Part shown: one piece after another, positions 8,319-20,059 of the stretch
Numbering within the stretch: the first letter of the stretch is position 1
How the letters are laid out: the number at the start of each line of letters is the position of its first letter
Source: a virus
Taxonomy: Duplodnaviria > Heunggongvirae > Uroviricota > Caudoviricetes
Direction: 5' to 3' (one strand)
Virus record (IMG/VR): IMGVR_UViG_2651869749_000005
DNA: 20,059 nt
Notes under the pieces: generated by a model
What the model saw: only the letters and a program-made list of their open reading frames with translations
What the model was told of the DNA's origin: nothing
Databases searched by the model: none
Made by a program: the position numbers and the translations under genes

Positions 8319-9347
8319 TTATTTCACCTGTACCACCACAAACTCATCCGGGTCCGGCAGCACCATCAGCGGCGCGGACTGCGTCATGGTGAATTCACGG
8401 GCCGGATCGCCCACGGTCTGCCAGTGTTTCGGATAACGGGAAGAGGCCACCACACCTTCGGACAACGCCTGCGCATCCTGAATGGCACCGTAACAACGAA
8501 TGCCCTCTGCTGCAGTATTCCCCAGAACCAGCGAGCCCTCCGGCAGATAACGTTTTTCGGTACCGTCCTCTGCCACATAAGACGTTTTCGCCACCACAAT
8601 GGCCAGATCGCCGTAATACCCTTTGAAGGACACCACCGCCCCCAGGTCTTTCACTGCCGTTTCGAGTTGTGAATTTGAGCCGCGACGGGTATCCAGTTTT
8701 TCACGGAACAGCTTAAAGCCATTCAGCAGACGCCAGACGATACCGTCCATAATGGCAATATTCACAAGACCGCTGGCCTGGTCGCAGTAGAGGTCAATAT
8801 CATGTGTAGGATCGAACGTGTCACGATCCTGTTTTGACCACTCCTTACCACTACCCTGAGTGATGTTATTCTTCGTCGACCTGCCAAAATCAACCTCAAT
8901 TTTCTCGAACTGTTCCCCTTCCATGGTGTATTTGCCATACAGCACGGCATTCACCGCCTGCATTTCTTCCACCTGCACAATAGCGTGCTCTTCCTGTTTG
9001 AGGTTATCAGTGATGATACGCAGACGACGGTAGGCCGGGTCGTTCAGCTGAGCCGGATCTTCACCGGGAAGGCGTTCAACCGCCTGCTGGTAATTAAATT
9101 CGTGTTTCGGCTTGACGTAGCCCGGACGTAACACGCGGGTTTCACCCCCACGATGACGCAGCACTTTTCCTTCAACGACCGGGGAAACATAGGCCGCCAC
9201 CGGCGTTTTTCCGGTAATTTTGTCCAGCATCACCTCTTCGGTATGGAAATTCACCGTACGGCGGAAAAACAGTTCCAGAAACAGCGCACGAAATTTAACT
9301 TTTTGTTCGGTATAACCGAGCAACTGGCGGGTCGTAAACAATCCCAT
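8319..9347 (-). CDS. E: Major capsid protein E
   Basis: 342-aa ORF (lambda E is 341 aa) MGLFTTRQLLGYTEQKVKFRALFLELFFRR...; AAGGA Shine-Dalgarno 8 nt upstream of the ATG. Confidence 0.92.
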   Translation of the reverse strand: MGLFTTRQLLGYTEQKVKFRALFLELFFRRTVNFHTEEVMLDKITGKTPVAAYVSPVVEGKVLRHRGGETRVLRPGYVKPKHEFNYQQAVERLPGEDPAQLNDPAYRRLRIITDNLKQEEHAIVQVEEMQAVNAVLYGKYTMEGEQFEKIEVDFGRSTKNNITQGSGKEWSKQDRDTFDPTHDIDLYCDQASGLVNIAIMDGIVWRLLNGFKLFREKLDTRRGSNSQLETAVKDLGAVVSFKGYYGDLAIVVAKTSYVAEDGTEKRYLPEGSLVLGNTAAEGIRCYGAIQDAQALSEGVVASSRYPKHWQTVGDPAREFTMTQSAPLMVLPDPDEFVVVQVK

Positions 9348-9378
9348 AAATCAGTTCCTTTCATTCAGAAATAAATAT

Positions 9379-9402
9379 CCTCCGGCATAGCCGGAGGTTT
9401 TT
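9379..9402. terminator. Perfect 8-bp stem hairpin with T5 tail (CCTCCGGC-ata-GCCGGAGG-TTTTT); likely the right-end subterminal hairpin of the IS200 element
   Basis: Direct reading; lies about 30 nt upstream of the E start and about 80 nt downstream of the tnpA stop. Confidence 0.6.
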
Positions 9403-9478
9403 CAAATGCGCCTGTAAGGCTCTCTTACCAGCCGCGCCCTAACAGGCGCACACGATCTGACATTTGCATCCAACTTCC

Positions 9479-9937
9479 TTACTTACGGCCCGTAAACGGG
9501 CTGCCCGGATAGGGAATCGATAACTGCTCTCCCATTTTATCCTCTTCAAGCTGGTGCTTTATGTAATCCTGTATCTTCGCCGTGTTCTTACCCACCGTAT
9601 CGACGTAATACCCTCTGCACCAGAACTCCCTGTTCCTGTATTTGAATTTCAAATCCCCAAACTGCTCGTAAAGCATCAGACTGCTTTTCCCTTTCAGATA
9701 TCCCATAAAGCCGGATACGCTCATTTTGGGCGGGATCTCCACAAGCATATGGATATGATCTGCACAGCATTCAGCTTCCAGAATCCGTACGCTTTTCCAC
9801 TCACACAGCTTTCTCAAAATACTGCCTATTGCTCTACGCTTCTCTCTGTAGAACACCTGTCTTCGGTATTTTGGCGCAAAAACTATGTGATATTTACAGT
9901 TCCATCGGGTGTGCGCTAAGCTCTTTTCGTTCCCCAT
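9479..9937 (-). CDS. tnpA: IS200 transposase TnpA (Y1 HUH transposase)
   Basis: 152-aa protein from the internal Met (MGNEKSLAHTRWNCKYHIVFAPKYRRQ...), with HIHMLVEIPP (HUH motif) and a C-terminal Tyr region; matches IS200 TnpA of Salmonella/E. coli from memory. The ORF-track N-terminal extension to 9988 is rejected. AAGGGGG SD 5 nt upstream. Confidence 0.88.
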   Translation of the reverse strand: MGNEKSLAHTRWNCKYHIVFAPKYRRQVFYREKRRAIGSILRKLCEWKSVRILEAECCADHIHMLVEIPPKMSVSGFMGYLKGKSSLMLYEQFGDLKFKYRNREFWCRGYYVDTVGKNTAKIQDYIKHQLEEDKMGEQLSIPYPGSPFTGRK

Positions 9938-10049
9938 TGGGACCCCCTTTTGATTTCTTGTTTGACACTTGCAGTTGCCAGACCGCAAGGTGTTTTAACA
10001 AATCAAAAGGGGTTTTAATAACTGGCTCAAAGCTGAAAGCTTTCCAGAA

Positions 10050-10072
10050 CCCCCAGCCTAGCTGGGGGTTTT
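10050..10072 (+). terminator. Hairpin CCCCCAGC-cta-GCTGGGGG followed by TTTT; candidate left-end IS200 terminator hairpin
   Basis: Direct reading; IS200 is known to carry a terminator-like hairpin near the left end upstream of tnpA. Confidence 0.55.
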
Positions 10073-10086
10073 CTGTGCACAATCAG

Positions 10087-10108
10087 TCAGGCCACCGCGG
10101 TGGCCTGA
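10087..10108. repeat. 22-bp perfect palindrome TCAGGCCACCGCGGTGGCCTGA
   Basis: Verified by hand as its own reverse complement; starts 8 nt downstream of the D stop codon. Confidence 0.9.
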
Positions 10109-10115
10109 TAACGTG

Positions 10116-10463
10116 TTACGGCAGCGCCGCGTGACTCAGGGCAGTGCCAGCAAAGGCATTTGCCTTTTTGTGTTCATCCACACTGTCAGGCCAGCGGATT
10201 GCCTCCGTCGCAAAGGTCCCCGACTTGTAATACGTCAGTACCGTCTCCGTGCCTTCAAGCGGCAGTACCAGTATGCCAACCGCACTACCGGCTTTCTGTC
10301 CATCCCAGACCACCAGTTTCCCGGTGGCTTCATCCAGCATCAGGGGCGTCAGAGCCGGTGTTGCAGAAGAAATCCCGCTGCTGCCTGTGGCGGTATGAGC
10401 CGGATCATTACCAGCAAAAATACGTACTTCCGCACGCTGTTCAGTGATGGTTTTCGTCACCAT
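10116..10463 (-). CDS. D: Head decoration protein D
   Basis: 115-aa ORF with PAHTATG...LTPLMLD...KLVVWDG...AVGIL...TYYKSGTF...AFAGTA, matching lambda gpD motifs (lambda D is 110 aa). Confidence 0.9.
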   Translation of the reverse strand: MVTKTITEQRAEVRIFAGNDPAHTATGSSGISSATPALTPLMLDEATGKLVVWDGQKAGSAVGILVLPLEGTETVLTYYKSGTFATEAIRWPDSVDEHKKANAFAGTALSHAALP

Positions 10464-16618: not shown

Positions 16619-16843
16619 ATGTCATCAAAGAACAGAACCCGCAGAACAACAACCCGCAACATCCGATTTCCAAACCAGATAATTGAACAAATTAACATCG
16701 CTCTTGACCTGAAAGGTTCAGGTAATTTTTCAGCGTGGGTTATTGAAGCCTGCAGAAGAAGATTAATTAATGAAAAATATTCTCAATTTGTACCCAACAA
16801 AGACAAACACGACCAGAGCACCTGTTCAGACAGGTTTACTTAA
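16619..16843 (+). CDS. Small ribbon-helix-helix-like DNA-binding protein (possibly DUF3950-type; unverified)
   Basis: 74-aa plus-strand ORF; basic N-terminus, then RNIRFPNQIIEQINIALDLKGSGNFSAWVIEACRRRL, which fits a beta-strand/helix/G-x-S/helix RHH fold; GGGG 8 nt upstream of the ATG; followed by an intrinsic terminator. Confidence 0.6.
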   Translation: MSSKNRTRRTTTRNIRFPNQIIEQINIALDLKGSGNFSAWVIEACRRRLINEKYSQFVPNKDKHDQSTCSDRFT

Positions 16844-16924: not shown

Positions 16925-17239
16925 TTAGCATTTTTTTGACCGCGCGTTTCCGGACGTATTCTGTTCTCCTGTCCCTTTATATCGTCGGAATACCCGCCGC
17001 TCTTCAAATCCCATTCCCAACTCAGAATGTAGTCTGTTGACCGCTTGTTTTATTTCGGTCAGGTTCACCGGTGAAACCGGAGTCCGGCGCGCCTTACGCA
17101 AACACTCTGCTCGTTTCTGTGCCGCCACTTTTCTTTTCTGGTCATCACTTAGCTGTACCATCACTTTTGCCCATCGTTCAGCTGCTCTCCGGTACAGTCC
17201 TTTTTTCTCCAGACATTCTGCCACGTGATCATGTAGCAT
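16925..17239 (-). CDS. PerC-family transcriptional regulator homolog (Pch-like)
   Basis: 104-aa ORF MLHDHVAECLEKKGLYRRAAERWAKVM...; the LE.KG.WRRAA.RW signature matches my recollection of PerC/Pch regulators of EPEC/EHEC. Strong GGAGG SD 6 nt upstream; preceded by a roughly 460-bp AT-rich leader. Confidence 0.65.
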   Translation of the reverse strand: MLHDHVAECLEKKGLYRRAAERWAKVMVQLSDDQKRKVAAQKRAECLRKARRTPVSPVNLTEIKQAVNRLHSELGMGFEERRVFRRYKGTGEQNTSGNARSKKC

Positions 17240-19935: not shown

Positions 19936-20059
19936 CTGATGTATGTCTCCGTCACCGCCGACGTAAGCGTACAGCCTGAACCGTCTGGTCAGAATCTGAC
20001 GAATTAGACAAAGTGGTGTCCACCAAATAAGTAGTGGGAACCAAAGTGTCAGATATGCA

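What the first reader, a model, noticed from the sequence alone, without database searches (positions are those of the whole stretch)
9370..10115. IS200-type element inserted in the D-E intergenic region of the head operon without disrupting coding sequence
A complete Y1-transposase gene (152 aa, HUH motif) with flanking hairpins lies between the decoration gene D and the major capsid gene E, in the same orientation as late transcription. The element carries strong terminator-like hairpins (9379-9402 and 10050-10072) in the middle of the late operon, so E and all downstream head and tail genes would depend on Q-mediated antitermination or be attenuated. This may be a polar insertion that cripples virion production.
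Basis: partly seen in the sequence, partly recalled or inferred. Interest (0 to 1): 0.5.

Follow-up and report, generated by a model that had tools for sequence, protein, structure and literature searches.

The report
IS200C insertion between phage head genes

Summary
A 711-bp IS200C (window 10080-9370, minus strand) lies in the D-E spacer, co-oriented with late transcription, and disrupts no coding sequence. Its TnpA is identical to WP_000526135.1. The left boundary is 10080, not 10115; 10081-10115 is native phage DNA with its own hairpin.

They are the element's subterminal palindromes.

Position and orientation follow from target choice. At 67 of 67 distinct sites the left end abuts a T-rich pentamer (TT[T/A]TT in 52), and nearly all have a GC hairpin just upstream.

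The "polar, crippling" reading is not supported:
- All late genes already need Q, a known polarity suppressor.
- Two deposited lambdoid phage genomes carry IS200C inside terminator tR2, upstream of Q.
- All other late ORFs in the window are full length.

It is not excluded either. No deposited phage genome has D|IS|E, only 9 of about 1,900 E. coli genomes do, and relatives show decay, including IS-IS recombination that splits the head operon.

Verdict: a known element at a site already annotated in RefSeq; low interest.

The parts
10116..10463 (-). Head decoration gene D (phage 21 shp type), 115 aa, intact; stop codon at 10118-10116.
   Evidence: Pfam HDPD, 5.7e-25. Same length as in phage 21 and PhiR12_1.
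10088..10107 (-). Native phage hairpin CAGGCCAC-CGCG-GTGGCCTG in the D-E spacer. It is the terminator-like structure the IS targeted.
   Evidence: Present in the IS-free phages 21 and PhiR12_1. Folds at -20.2 kcal/mol, z = -4.95.
10081..10085 (-). Target pentanucleotide TGATT immediately 5' of the IS left end. The last two T's cannot be assigned unambiguously to target or IS.
   Evidence: Empty site reads ...CCTGACTGATT|TCTGAATG.... The site consensus is T-T-(T/A)-T-T over 67 sites.
9370..10080 (-). IS200C, 711 bp, complete (IS200/IS605 family, IS200 group; tnpA only).
   Evidence: Shared block in the alignment with five independent copies. Occupied minus empty site = 711 bp. One SNP from the ML35 copy.
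10048..10070 (-). Left-end subterminal palindrome AACCCCCAGC-TAG-GCTGGGGGTT. It corresponds to the described bidirectional rho-independent terminator of IS200 and is preceded by the A-rich putative guide GAAAA.
   Evidence: Fold of -22.7 kcal/mol. Positions 1-23 of the Rfam STnc490 model. PMC4513863 places the terminator at nt 12-34.
9947..10070 (-). [quoted passage not shown] It is also the template of the antisense art200 RNA.
   Evidence: Rfam RF01405 STnc490, 146.3 bits, E = 2.1e-30, full length. Described in PMC4513863.
9479..9937 (-). tnpA, a Y1 HUH transposase of 152 aa (H61-I-H63, Y125), intact.
   Evidence: Pfam Y1_Tnp. NCBIfam transpos_IS200. PDB relatives 2ec2, 2a6m and 2xm3. 100% identical to WP_000526135.1.
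9405..9451 (-). Imperfect palindrome inside the right end (GTGCGCCTGT...ACAGGCGCAT); role unknown.
   Evidence: Fold of -26.8 kcal/mol, z = -2.7. Conserved in all IS copies.
9370..9397 (-). Right-end subterminal palindrome CCTCCGGC-TAT-GCCGGAGG plus the tail ATATTTATT. It is terminator-like on both strands and is preceded by GAAAAA.
   Evidence: Flagged on both strands by the terminator scan. Present in all IS copies. Absent from the empty site.
8319..9369 (-). Native leader (9369-9348, SD AAGGAA at 9360-9355) and major capsid gene E, 342 aa, intact.
   Evidence: Pfam Phage_cap_E, 3.3e-65. Leader identical to the empty site. SD and AUG are not sequestered in the centroid fold.

Best explanation
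**What it is.** This is an intact copy of the known insertion sequence IS200C (711 bp; IS200/IS605 family, tnpA-only group). It transposed by the family's single-strand 'peel-and-paste' route into the D-E spacer of a phage-21-type lambdoid prophage.

**Why it sits here.**
- IS200C homes to intrinsic-terminator-like sites: a GC hairpin followed within a few bases by a T-rich pentamer (TT[T/A]TT in 52 of 67 sites).
- It always places its left end directly 3' of that pentamer on the same strand.
- The native D-E hairpin (10107-10088) followed by ACTGATT is such a site.
- This explains three things at once: the spacer position, the untouched coding sequence, and the co-orientation with late transcription.

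**What the hairpins are.** They are its recombination ends. The left one is also an experimentally described bidirectional terminator that insulates tnpA.

**What it leaves behind.** The right end resembles its own target (hairpin plus T-rich tail). It therefore leaves E with a leader of nearly the original architecture and an intact SD.

**Expected effect (inferred).** During lytic growth, Q-loaded RNA polymerase should read through the element. The insertion by itself then costs little or no expression of E and the tail genes.

**Documented consequence.** In relatives the copy is a piece of portable homology and a landing pad. It has recombined with other IS200C copies, splitting the head operon, and has been hit by ISEc48.

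**Shown versus inferred.**
- Shown here: identity, ends, empty site, target rule, intact neighbours, the rearranged relatives.
- Inferred: read-through by Q, and guide/target base-pairing.
For: **Identity and ends:**

**Empty site:** in phage 21 and PhiR12_1 the native hairpin is present and both IS hairpins are absent; the length difference is 711 bp.

**Target rule**, over 67 distinct 5' flanks from many Enterobacterales plus E. coli and phages:
- All 67 end in TT, and 66 of 67 have T at position -5.
- 56 of 67 have a perfect stem of 6 bp or more ending within 13 nt of the junction. The rate is 3.9% in random 45-mers and 11.5% at TT[T/A]TT sites in general.
- 94% fold at -14 kcal/mol or better, against 13-15% of controls.
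- Independent literature: terminator-like sequences are over-represented just upstream of ISs, most strongly for IS200/IS605 (PMC13548323).

**Left-end hairpin as a terminator:** PMC4513863.

**Tolerance under antitermination:**
- Lambda_ev058 and PhiR63_2 carry IS200C co-oriented inside tR2 (GGCCTTTTTATT|GTGCAC) between ren and ninB, upstream of Q.
- Q blocks terminator hairpins and suppresses polarity.
- Related prophages with the same Nu1 all have a Q gene 8-9 kb upstream.

**Intact neighbours:** all other late genes in the window give full-length family matches.

**Leader of E:** native 'hairpin + ACUGAUU + UCUGAAUG...' becomes 'hairpin + AUAUUUAUU + UCUGAAUG...'.

**Later rearrangements:**
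Against: - No transcript or phage-yield data exist for this arrangement.
- None of the 19 deposited phage genomes with this D-E junction carries the IS.
- Only 9 of about 1,912 E. coli complete genomes with the junction are occupied.
- Several carriers are visibly decaying. B19429 lacks the portal gene. In the window's own lineage, 15 of 20 resolvable contigs are rearranged at the IS.
- The tR2 examples involve N-type rather than Q-type antitermination.
- Q itself is outside the window.
- The TT at both junctions leaves the ends uncertain by 2 nt.
Confidence: 0.72

Rival explanations
1. The IS200C terminators, plus roughly 700 nt of poorly translated RNA, attenuate transcription between D and E. 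E, the head-completion genes and all tail genes are therefore under-expressed, and the prophage makes few or no virions.
For: - The left-end hairpin is described as a rho-independent terminator that blocks impinging transcription (PMC4513863).
- The right-end hairpin is terminator-like on the late-transcript strand.
- No deposited phage genome has D|IS|E (0 of 19 with this junction).
- The arrangement is rare (9 of about 1,912 genomes).
- Carriers show decay: portal deletion, ISEc48 insertion and IS-IS recombinants.
Against: - Q-loaded polymerase sterically prevents terminator hairpins, acts over tens of kilobases, and suppresses polarity.
- The late operon already contains a native hairpin at this very spot.
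- Two deposited lambdoid phage genomes tolerate the same IS, in the same orientation, in the N-antiterminated operon upstream of Q.
- On the late-transcript strand the left-end hairpin is followed by UUCUGGAAAG, a poor U-tract.
- All downstream ORFs in the window are full length.
- Decay in relatives is explained by recombination at the IS and need not reflect polarity.
Confidence: 0.2
2. Co-opted element. The insertion is retained because it does something for the phage or host. Possibilities are tuning the D:E ratio, stabilising the D-proximal mRNA, or supplying the IS200 5'tnpA/art200 regulatory RNAs during induction.
For: - The IS200 5'UTR and antisense RNAs are Hfq-binding regulators in Salmonella (PMC5435999 and PMC4513863).
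- The full STnc490 region is intact here.
- At least three IS alleles occupy the same site in different prophages.
Against: - Recurrence at one site is expected from target specificity alone.
- Occupancy is about 0.5% of junctions.
- The copy is indistinguishable from chromosomal copies.
- Relatives inactivate or rearrange it.
Confidence: 0.04
3. Single ancient insertion. The D|IS|E arrangement arose once and spread with the head module. On this view the different IS alleles at the site reflect later gene conversion from other genomic copies, not repeated insertion.
For: - The junctions are identical in the window, L006 and L078.
- IS copies recombine with each other in this lineage.
Against: - Three IS alleles at the site each match, to within 1 SNP, alleles found at unrelated loci.
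- L079 and L080 differ at the junctions themselves (an extra T at the right end; an extra TTG at the left end).
- Two different alleles also occupy the tR2 site in two phages.
Confidence: 0.3

Closest known systems
IS200C (ISfinder/PGAP name), the E. coli member of the IS200 group of the IS200/IS605 family
   Same: - TnpA 100% identical to WP_000526135.1.
- One SNP from the E. coli ML35 copy over about 711 bp.
- Same left-end terminator palindrome, 5'UTR stem-loop and right-end palindrome.
- The same D|IS200C|E arrangement is already annotated in nine RefSeq E. coli genomes.
   Different: Nothing in the element itself. In the window's lineage the IS allele and the flanking D/E haplotype differ from those nine genomes: 8 SNPs in the IS and 6 in 190 nt of flank.
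Salmonella IS200 (707 bp), as characterised by Beuzon et al. 1999 and Ellis et al. 2015
   Same: - Same organisation: a bidirectional terminator hairpin near the left end, an SD-sequestering stem-loop, the antisense art200/STnc490 region, a single tnpA, and the catalytic Y125.
- Full-length Rfam STnc490 match.
   Different: - About 92% DNA identity (the S. houtenae hit).
- 711 bp here against 707 bp.
- Terminator function and RNA regulation were measured in Salmonella and E. coli lab constructs, not for this copy or under Q-modified transcription.
IS608 / ISDra2, the mechanistic paradigms of the family
   Same: - Y1 HUH transposase fold relatives (2a6m, 2xm3; E = 1e-16 to 1e-19).
- Subterminal palindromes rather than terminal inverted repeats.
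- Strand-specific insertion 3' of a short specific sequence.
- No clear target duplication.
   Different: - IS608 and ISDra2 recognise only a tetra- or pentanucleotide (TTAC, TTGAT).
- IS200C sites additionally carry a GC hairpin a few bases upstream in about 85-95% of cases. The target therefore looks like a whole intrinsic terminator and like the element's own right end.
- There is no tnpB.
IS200C inside tR2 of the lambdoid phages Lambda_ev058 and PhiR63_2
   Same: - Same element and same orientation relative to an antiterminated phage operon.
- Inserted in the T-tract after a terminator hairpin.
- Coding sequences untouched.
   Different: - Early (pR, N-dependent) operon rather than the late (pR', Q-dependent) operon.
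- Those are deposited as phage genomes, whereas D|IS|E is so far seen only in prophages.

Membership tests
IS200/IS605 family, IS200 group (IS200C) | Encodes a Y1 (single-tyrosine) HUH transposase. | tested here: met
   - Pfam Y1_Tnp: 130.7 bits against a cut-off of 23.
- NCBIfam transpos_IS200 equivalog: 147.7 bits against 55.
- PDB relatives 2ec2, 2f4f, 2a6m and 2xm3.
IS200/IS605 family, IS200 group (IS200C) | Catalytic HUH motif and catalytic tyrosine are present, and the ORF is uninterrupted. | tested here: met
   - H61-I62-H63 and Y125 read directly from the translation.
- Y125F is the catalytically dead mutant in PMC4513863.
- 152 of 152 residues identical to WP_000526135.1.
IS200/IS605 family, IS200 group (IS200C) | About 0.7 kb, with tnpA only and no tnpB. 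| tested here: met
   711 bp between the junctions, and a single ORF with any family match.
IS200/IS605 family, IS200 group (IS200C) | Subterminal palindromes at both ends instead of terminal inverted repeats. | tested here: met
   - LE CCCCCAGC-TAG-GCTGGGGG (10068-10050) and RE CCTCCGGC-TAT-GCCGGAGG (9397-9379).
- Both have 8-bp stems with 3-nt loops and are preceded by GAAAA(A).
- The termini GTGCAC... and ...TATTTATT are not inverted repeats.
IS200/IS605 family, IS200 group (IS200C) | Insertion makes no target-site duplication. | tested here: inconclusive
   The occupied site minus the empty site is exactly 711 bp, and there is no repeat longer than 2 nt. However, TT is present at both junctions, so a 709-bp element with a 2-bp duplication cannot be formally excluded.
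IS200/IS605 family, IS200 group (IS200C) | Strand-specific insertion 3' of a short specific sequence that resembles the right-end cleavage site. | tested here: met
   - Pentamers 5' of the left end in 67 sites: TTTTT 38, TTATT 14, TTCTT 4, TTGTT 3, TGATT 3, others 5.
- The right end terminates in TTATT.
IS200/IS605 family, IS200 group (IS200C) | IS200-specific left-end RNA structure (5'UTR stem-loop, art200/STnc490 region). | tested here: met
   Rfam RF01405: 146.3 bits against a gathering score of 56, covering model positions 1-124 of 124.
IS200/IS605 family, IS200 group (IS200C) | Transposes through single-stranded DNA intermediates; this copy is active. | not testable with these tools
   Sequence intactness is the only evidence available here. 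IS200 is notoriously inactive in the laboratory (PMC4513863).
Intrinsic (rho-independent) terminator, as claimed for the two hairpins | GC-rich stem-loop directly followed by a U-tract on the transcribed strand. | tested here: inconclusive
   - The right-end hairpin meets the scan criteria on both strands (tail AUAUUUAUUU on the late strand).
- The left-end hairpin is followed by UUCUGGAAAG on the late strand, which the scan did not flag. It has UUUUCUGUG on the opposite strand.
Intrinsic (rho-independent) terminator, as claimed for the two hairpins | Actually stops RNA polymerase in this context, that is, Q-modified polymerase. | not testable with these tools
   The literature reports that the left-end hairpin terminates ordinary impinging transcription (PMC4513863). 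It also reports that Q-loaded polymerase blocks terminator hairpins (10.1101/2022.03.25.485794). There is no measurement for this construct.
Lambdoid Q-dependent late operon (the context assumed by the finding) | Lambda-order lysis, terminase, head and tail genes on one strand. | tested here: met
   Holin, endolysin, Rz, Nu1, A, W, B, C, D, E, FI, FII, Z, U, V, G, T, H, M and L are all on the minus strand with full-length matches.
Lambdoid Q-dependent late operon (the context assumed by the finding) | A Q gene and pR'/tR' lie upstream. | not testable with these tools
   These lie beyond window position 20059. In relatives with the same Nu1, and in D|IS|E carriers, a Q-family gene sits 6-9 kb upstream of Nu1.

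The most novel reading that the evidence does not exclude
IS200C may be a dedicated terminator-homing element for which antiterminated phage operons are both safe harbour and vehicle.
- In the chromosome, the target terminator plus the left-end terminator keep tnpA silent.
- In a lambdoid operon, N- or Q-modified polymerase would override both during induction.
- That would flood the cell with tnpA-sense RNA exactly when replicating phage DNA offers abundant single-stranded substrate.
- Prophage induction would then trigger IS200C transposition and export, which might help explain how an element that is almost immobile in the laboratory has spread across Enterobacterales.

The recurrent hits at D-E (at least 3 alleles) and at tR2 (2 alleles) would be footprints of this.
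Probability: 0.12. Interest if true: 0.55.

Novelty: already known. Interest (0 to 1): 0.22.

Why it matters
For this window it matters little. It is a standard IS200C copy at a site already annotated in RefSeq genomes, and there is no evidence that it inactivates the prophage.

Three points are useful for annotation and for anyone scoring prophage 'intactness':
- The hairpins are transposon ends, not phage regulatory signals.
- An IS in an antiterminated operon should not automatically be scored as a polar knock-out.
- Such a copy is a recombination hazard that can split a prophage, as seen in relatives.

The wider by-product is the very strict 'hairpin plus T-rich pentamer' target rule of IS200C. 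It sharpens a statistical observation published in 2026, and it would be worth a proper survey and a biochemical test.

Tried and rejected
- **Source of the window.** The whole-window search found no match of 99% or better in E. coli complete genomes. The best was about 95% over 90% of the window, so the source genome is not in that collection. Exact-protein look-up found the lineage in draft assemblies instead.
- **Beuzon et al. 1999 (PMC148624)** is not held. Terminator efficiency figures could not be read, so I rely on the description in PMC4513863.
- **Phage isolation papers.** Searches for the PhiR63_2, PhiR12 and ev058 isolation papers returned nothing relevant. That these are plaque-forming phages rests on the database records: 'complete genome', with a propagation host listed for PhiR63_2.
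- **Prior statement of the target rule.** Searches for an explicit earlier statement that IS200 or IS1541 targets terminators found only two things: the 2026 ISME J statistics and an incidental IS1541 insertion between pheL and pheA. Searches gave nothing more.
- **IS polarity in late operons.** A search on this topic gave no direct hit.
- **Nu1 look-up.** The exact-protein look-up with Nu1 returned only IS-free relatives from other prophages. It was useful for showing Q upstream but not for this lineage's ends.
- **A Shigella origin**, considered because of the IS-rich rearrangements, has no support. The secondary insertion is ISEc48.
- **An internal promoter driving E** is not supported. No sigma-70-like site lies in the IS or in the leader of E.
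- **Sequestration of E's SD by the right end** is not supported in the centroid fold.
Full report
**1. What is in the sequence.**

The window is the late region of a lambda-like prophage, read on the minus strand. In order it holds holin, endolysin, Rz, Nu1, terminase A, W, portal B, protease/scaffold C, D (10463-10116), E (9347-8319), FI, FII, Z, U, V, G, T, H, M and L. All give full-length family matches.

In the 768-nt gap between D and E lies a 152-aa ORF on the same strand (ATG 9937, stop 9481-9479).
- It matches Pfam Y1_Tnp (3.8e-38) and the NCBIfam equivalog transpos_IS200 (147.7 bits).
- Its solved relatives are the IS200/IS605 transposases.
- It is residue-for-residue identical to WP_000526135.1, which PGAP names 'IS200C family transposase'.
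- The HUH motif is H61-I-H63. Y125 is the residue whose Y125F change is catalytically dead in IS200 (PMC4513863).

Upstream of the ORF, Rfam's STnc490 model (the IS200 left-end RNA) matches 10070-9947 over its full length at 146 bits.

**2. Exact ends, and whose hairpins they are.**

I aligned the region with five independent IS200C copies, at the mdtP, trkA, ydcO, gpU and ynfM loci. The shared block runs from TTGTGCAC... to ...GATATTTATT.

Phage 21 and phage PhiR12_1 have the same D and E (96.9-99.5% identical in the flanks) but no IS. Their spacer reads ...CAGGCCACCGCGGTGGCCTGACTGATT|TCTGAATGAAAGGAACTGATTTATG.

The insertion is thus 711 bp, window 10080-9370. A TT at both junctions leaves a 2-nt ambiguity, and there is no longer duplication.

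Both hairpins named in the finding lie inside the element:
- LE: CCCCCAGC-TAG-GCTGGGGG, 10068-10050.
- RE: CCTCCGGC-TAT-GCCGGAGG, 9397-9379, with the tail ATATTTATT.

They occur in every copy and are missing from the empty site.

The two hairpins are built alike: 8-bp stems, 3-nt loops, each preceded by GAAAA(A). That is what the family's left and right subterminal palindromes with their 5' guide sequences should look like (family description in PMC3333891). This assignment is an inference.

It contains a third hairpin, 10107-10088, at -20 kcal/mol.

**3. Why it is there: a target rule.**

The five comparison copies all had a hairpin just upstream of the left end, so I scanned one genome per species for the left-end 33-mer. 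I then collected every distinct 45-nt 5' flank, including the window, the E. coli copies and the phage copies.

| Measure | Insertion sites (n = 67) | Random 45-mers | TT[T/A]TT sites in general |
|---|---|---|---|
| Perfect stem of 6 bp or more ending within 13 nt of the junction | 56 of 67 | 3.9% | 11.5% |
| Fold at -14 kcal/mol or better | 94% | 13% | 15% |

All 67 flanks end in TT, and 66 have T at position -5. The pentamers are TTTTT 38, TTATT 14, TTCTT 4, TTGTT 3, TGATT 3 and others 5.

IS200C therefore inserts in the T-tract of intrinsic-terminator-like structures, with its left end always on the 3' side. This matches, and sharpens, a 2026 statistical report that terminator-like sequences are over-represented just upstream of ISs, most strongly for IS200/IS605 (PMC13548323).

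The D-E hairpin followed by ACTGATT is such a site.
- the spacer position;
- the intact coding sequences;
- the co-orientation with late transcription, which is set by the polarity of the target rather than by selection.

The right end (hairpin plus ATATTTATT) resembles the target. As a result, E keeps a leader of almost the original design: native hairpin + ACUGAUU + UCUGAAUG... becomes right-end hairpin + AUAUUUAUU + UCUGAAUG.... The SD (9360-9355) and AUG are unchanged and are not sequestered in the centroid fold.

**4. Does it cripple the phage?**

*Points against a strong polar effect.*
- (a) Every late gene of a lambdoid phage already depends on Q to pass tR', so 'dependence on Q' is not a new liability.
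- Q-loaded polymerase forms a nozzle on the RNA exit channel. The nozzle prevents terminator hairpins from forming and stays attached over tens of kilobases (bioRxiv 10.1101/2022.03.25.485794).
- Q-lambda is a recognised polarity suppressor (Forbes & Herskowitz 1982, cited in PMC12360218).
- Relatives with the same Nu1, and the D|IS|E carriers, have a Q gene 6-9 kb upstream. Q itself lies outside the window.
- (b) The operon carries a native hairpin at this same spot in working phages.
- (c) On the late strand the left-end hairpin is followed by UUCUGGAAAG, a poor U-tract.
- (d) Two deposited lambdoid phage genomes, Lambda_ev058 and PhiR63_2, carry IS200C in the same relative orientation inside tR2 (AACAGGCCTGC.GGTAATCGCAGGCCTTTTTATT|GTGCAC...). 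It lies between ren and ninB, so all pR transcription towards Q must cross it.
- (e) No other late gene in the window is damaged.

*Points for a cost.*
- None of the 19 deposited phage genomes with this D-E junction carries the IS.
- Only 9 of about 1,912 E. coli complete genomes with the junction are occupied.
- Carriers show decay; B19429 has lost the 3' end of A, W and the portal gene.

On balance I put about 0.2 on a substantial polar effect.

**5. What the insertion has demonstrably done in relatives.**

I looked up the window's exact E protein in public assemblies. All 24 contigs read have the IS right end next to E. One contig, L081, is 99.986% identical to the window over 7 kb.

| Arrangement in the 24 contigs read (including similar places not shown) | Contigs |
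|---|---|
| Intact D\|IS\|E | 5 |
| recQ-rhtC-type genes\|IS\|E (L082) | 6 |
| ung-grcA\|IS\|E (L085) | 1 |
| ISEc48 inserted inside the IS200C (L086-L088) | 8 |
| Contig starts inside the IS | 4 |

- In L082 and L085 the left flank is a different terminator or REP hairpin. That is the signature of recombination between this copy and another IS200C copy, and it separates D from E.

The clearest documented consequence is therefore that the copy acts as portable homology and as a landing pad. Polarity has not been shown.

**6. One insertion or several?**

The window's IS allele is 1 SNP from the ML35 chromosomal copy. It differs at 8 positions from the allele at the same site in NMBU-W13E19 and 2022N21-074. 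A third allele occupies the site in EC190329 and B19429, whose junctions also differ by an extra T and an extra TTG respectively.

Each allele matches copies at unrelated loci. Two alleles likewise occupy tR2 in the two phages. Repeated insertion into a preferred target is the simpler reading, but gene conversion between IS copies is not excluded.

**7. Comparison with the known, and novelty.**

The element passes every sequence-level membership test for IS200C and the IS200 group. The one exception is the 'no target duplication' criterion, which is limited by the TT ambiguity.

It works like IS608 and ISDra2 in inserting 3' of a short motif, strand-specifically. It differs in that its sites also carry an adjacent hairpin, so the target looks like a complete terminator and like the element's own right end.

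The element is known, and the D|IS200C|E arrangement is already annotated in nine RefSeq genomes. The finding is therefore 'already known' and of low interest.

The most novel reading left open is that antiterminated phage operons are both safe harbours and induction-coupled launch pads for IS200C. Nothing here tests it directly.

**8. Limits.**
- There are no expression or phage-yield data.
- Q and the prophage ends lie outside the window.
- That ev058 and PhiR63_2 are viable rests on their database records.
- Terminator efficiencies come from secondary citation.
- The 67 flanks come from a limited set of genomes, several sites per genome, though every flank is a distinct locus.

Noticed in passing
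L001-L005, L009-L077 (5' flanks of IS200C left ends); window 10081-10107: IS200C-type elements sit almost without exception directly after a GC hairpin plus a T-rich pentamer (TT[T/A]TT in 52 of 67 sites), in many Enterobacterales (Kluyvera, Citrobacter, Phytobacter, Brenneria, Serratia, Yersinia and others). 56 of 67 flanks have a perfect stem of 6 bp or more, against 3.9% of random 45-mers and 11.5% of TT[T/A]TT sites. The target looks like a whole intrinsic terminator and like the element's own right end.
   Followed up: yes
L009 3960-4720 (PhiR63_2, PV340574) and L010 (Lambda_ev058, LR597651): Two deposited lambdoid phage genomes carry IS200C inside the T-tract of terminator tR2, between ren and ninB. 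It is co-oriented with pR transcription and upstream of Q. The two copies are different IS alleles.
   Followed up: partly
window 9370-10080 versus L006, L078, L079, L080: At least three different IS200C alleles occupy the identical D-E site in different E. coli prophages. L080 has an extra TTG at the left junction and L079 an extra T at the right junction. This points either to repeated insertion at a hot spot or to gene conversion between IS copies.
   Followed up: partly
L082 2200-2300 and L085 2200-2300: In relatives with the window's exact E protein, the left flank of the IS is a chromosomal terminator or REP (after recQ and a LysE-family gene, or after ung-grcA) instead of D. IS200C-IS200C recombination has split the head operon between D and E.
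   Followed up: partly
L086 840-2190, L087, L088 (window equivalent about 9826-9841): An IS3-family element, ISEc48 (99% identical to annotated copies), is inserted inside the IS200C tnpA gene in several assemblies of the same prophage lineage.
   Followed up: partly
L080 16959-18206 (E. coli B19429): One D|IS|E carrier has a deletion that fuses the terminase A gene to the protease gene. W and the portal gene are missing, so that prophage is defective for a reason unrelated to the IS.
   Followed up: no
L004 200-1130 (E. coli BEC1-S17-ESBL-09); also hit H20 (NZ_OZ547043): IS200C is also found inside the tail-terminator gene U of lambdoid prophages, after a hairpin within coding sequence (GGCGAC...GTCGCCCCGTTGTTT|). 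There it does split a gene, so targeting a hairpin does not guarantee a harmless site.
   Followed up: no
window 9947-10070: The Rfam STnc490 model matches the tnpA-sense strand. The literature describes STnc490/art200 as antisense to the tnpA 5'UTR. The hit identifies the region but not which of the two RNAs it represents.
   Followed up: no
window 9348-9397 versus L007 700-745: After insertion, the leader of E has nearly the same layout as before: a GC hairpin, 7-9 nt of T-rich spacer, then UCUGAAUGAAAGGAACUGAUUUAUG. The IS right end mimics the target it replaced.
   Followed up: yes
window 16619-16843 (+) and 16925-17239 (-): Two small ORFs of unknown function lie between Rz and Nu1. They match phrog_949, on the opposite strand, and phrog_994 (with partial similarity to 'transcriptional activator' families). 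This is typical moron-like cargo at the lysis/cos junction.
   Followed up: no
PMC3082878 (literature): In Yersinia, the IS200 relative IS1541 is reported between pheL and pheA, that is, at the pheA attenuator terminator. This fits the terminator-homing rule.
   Followed up: no
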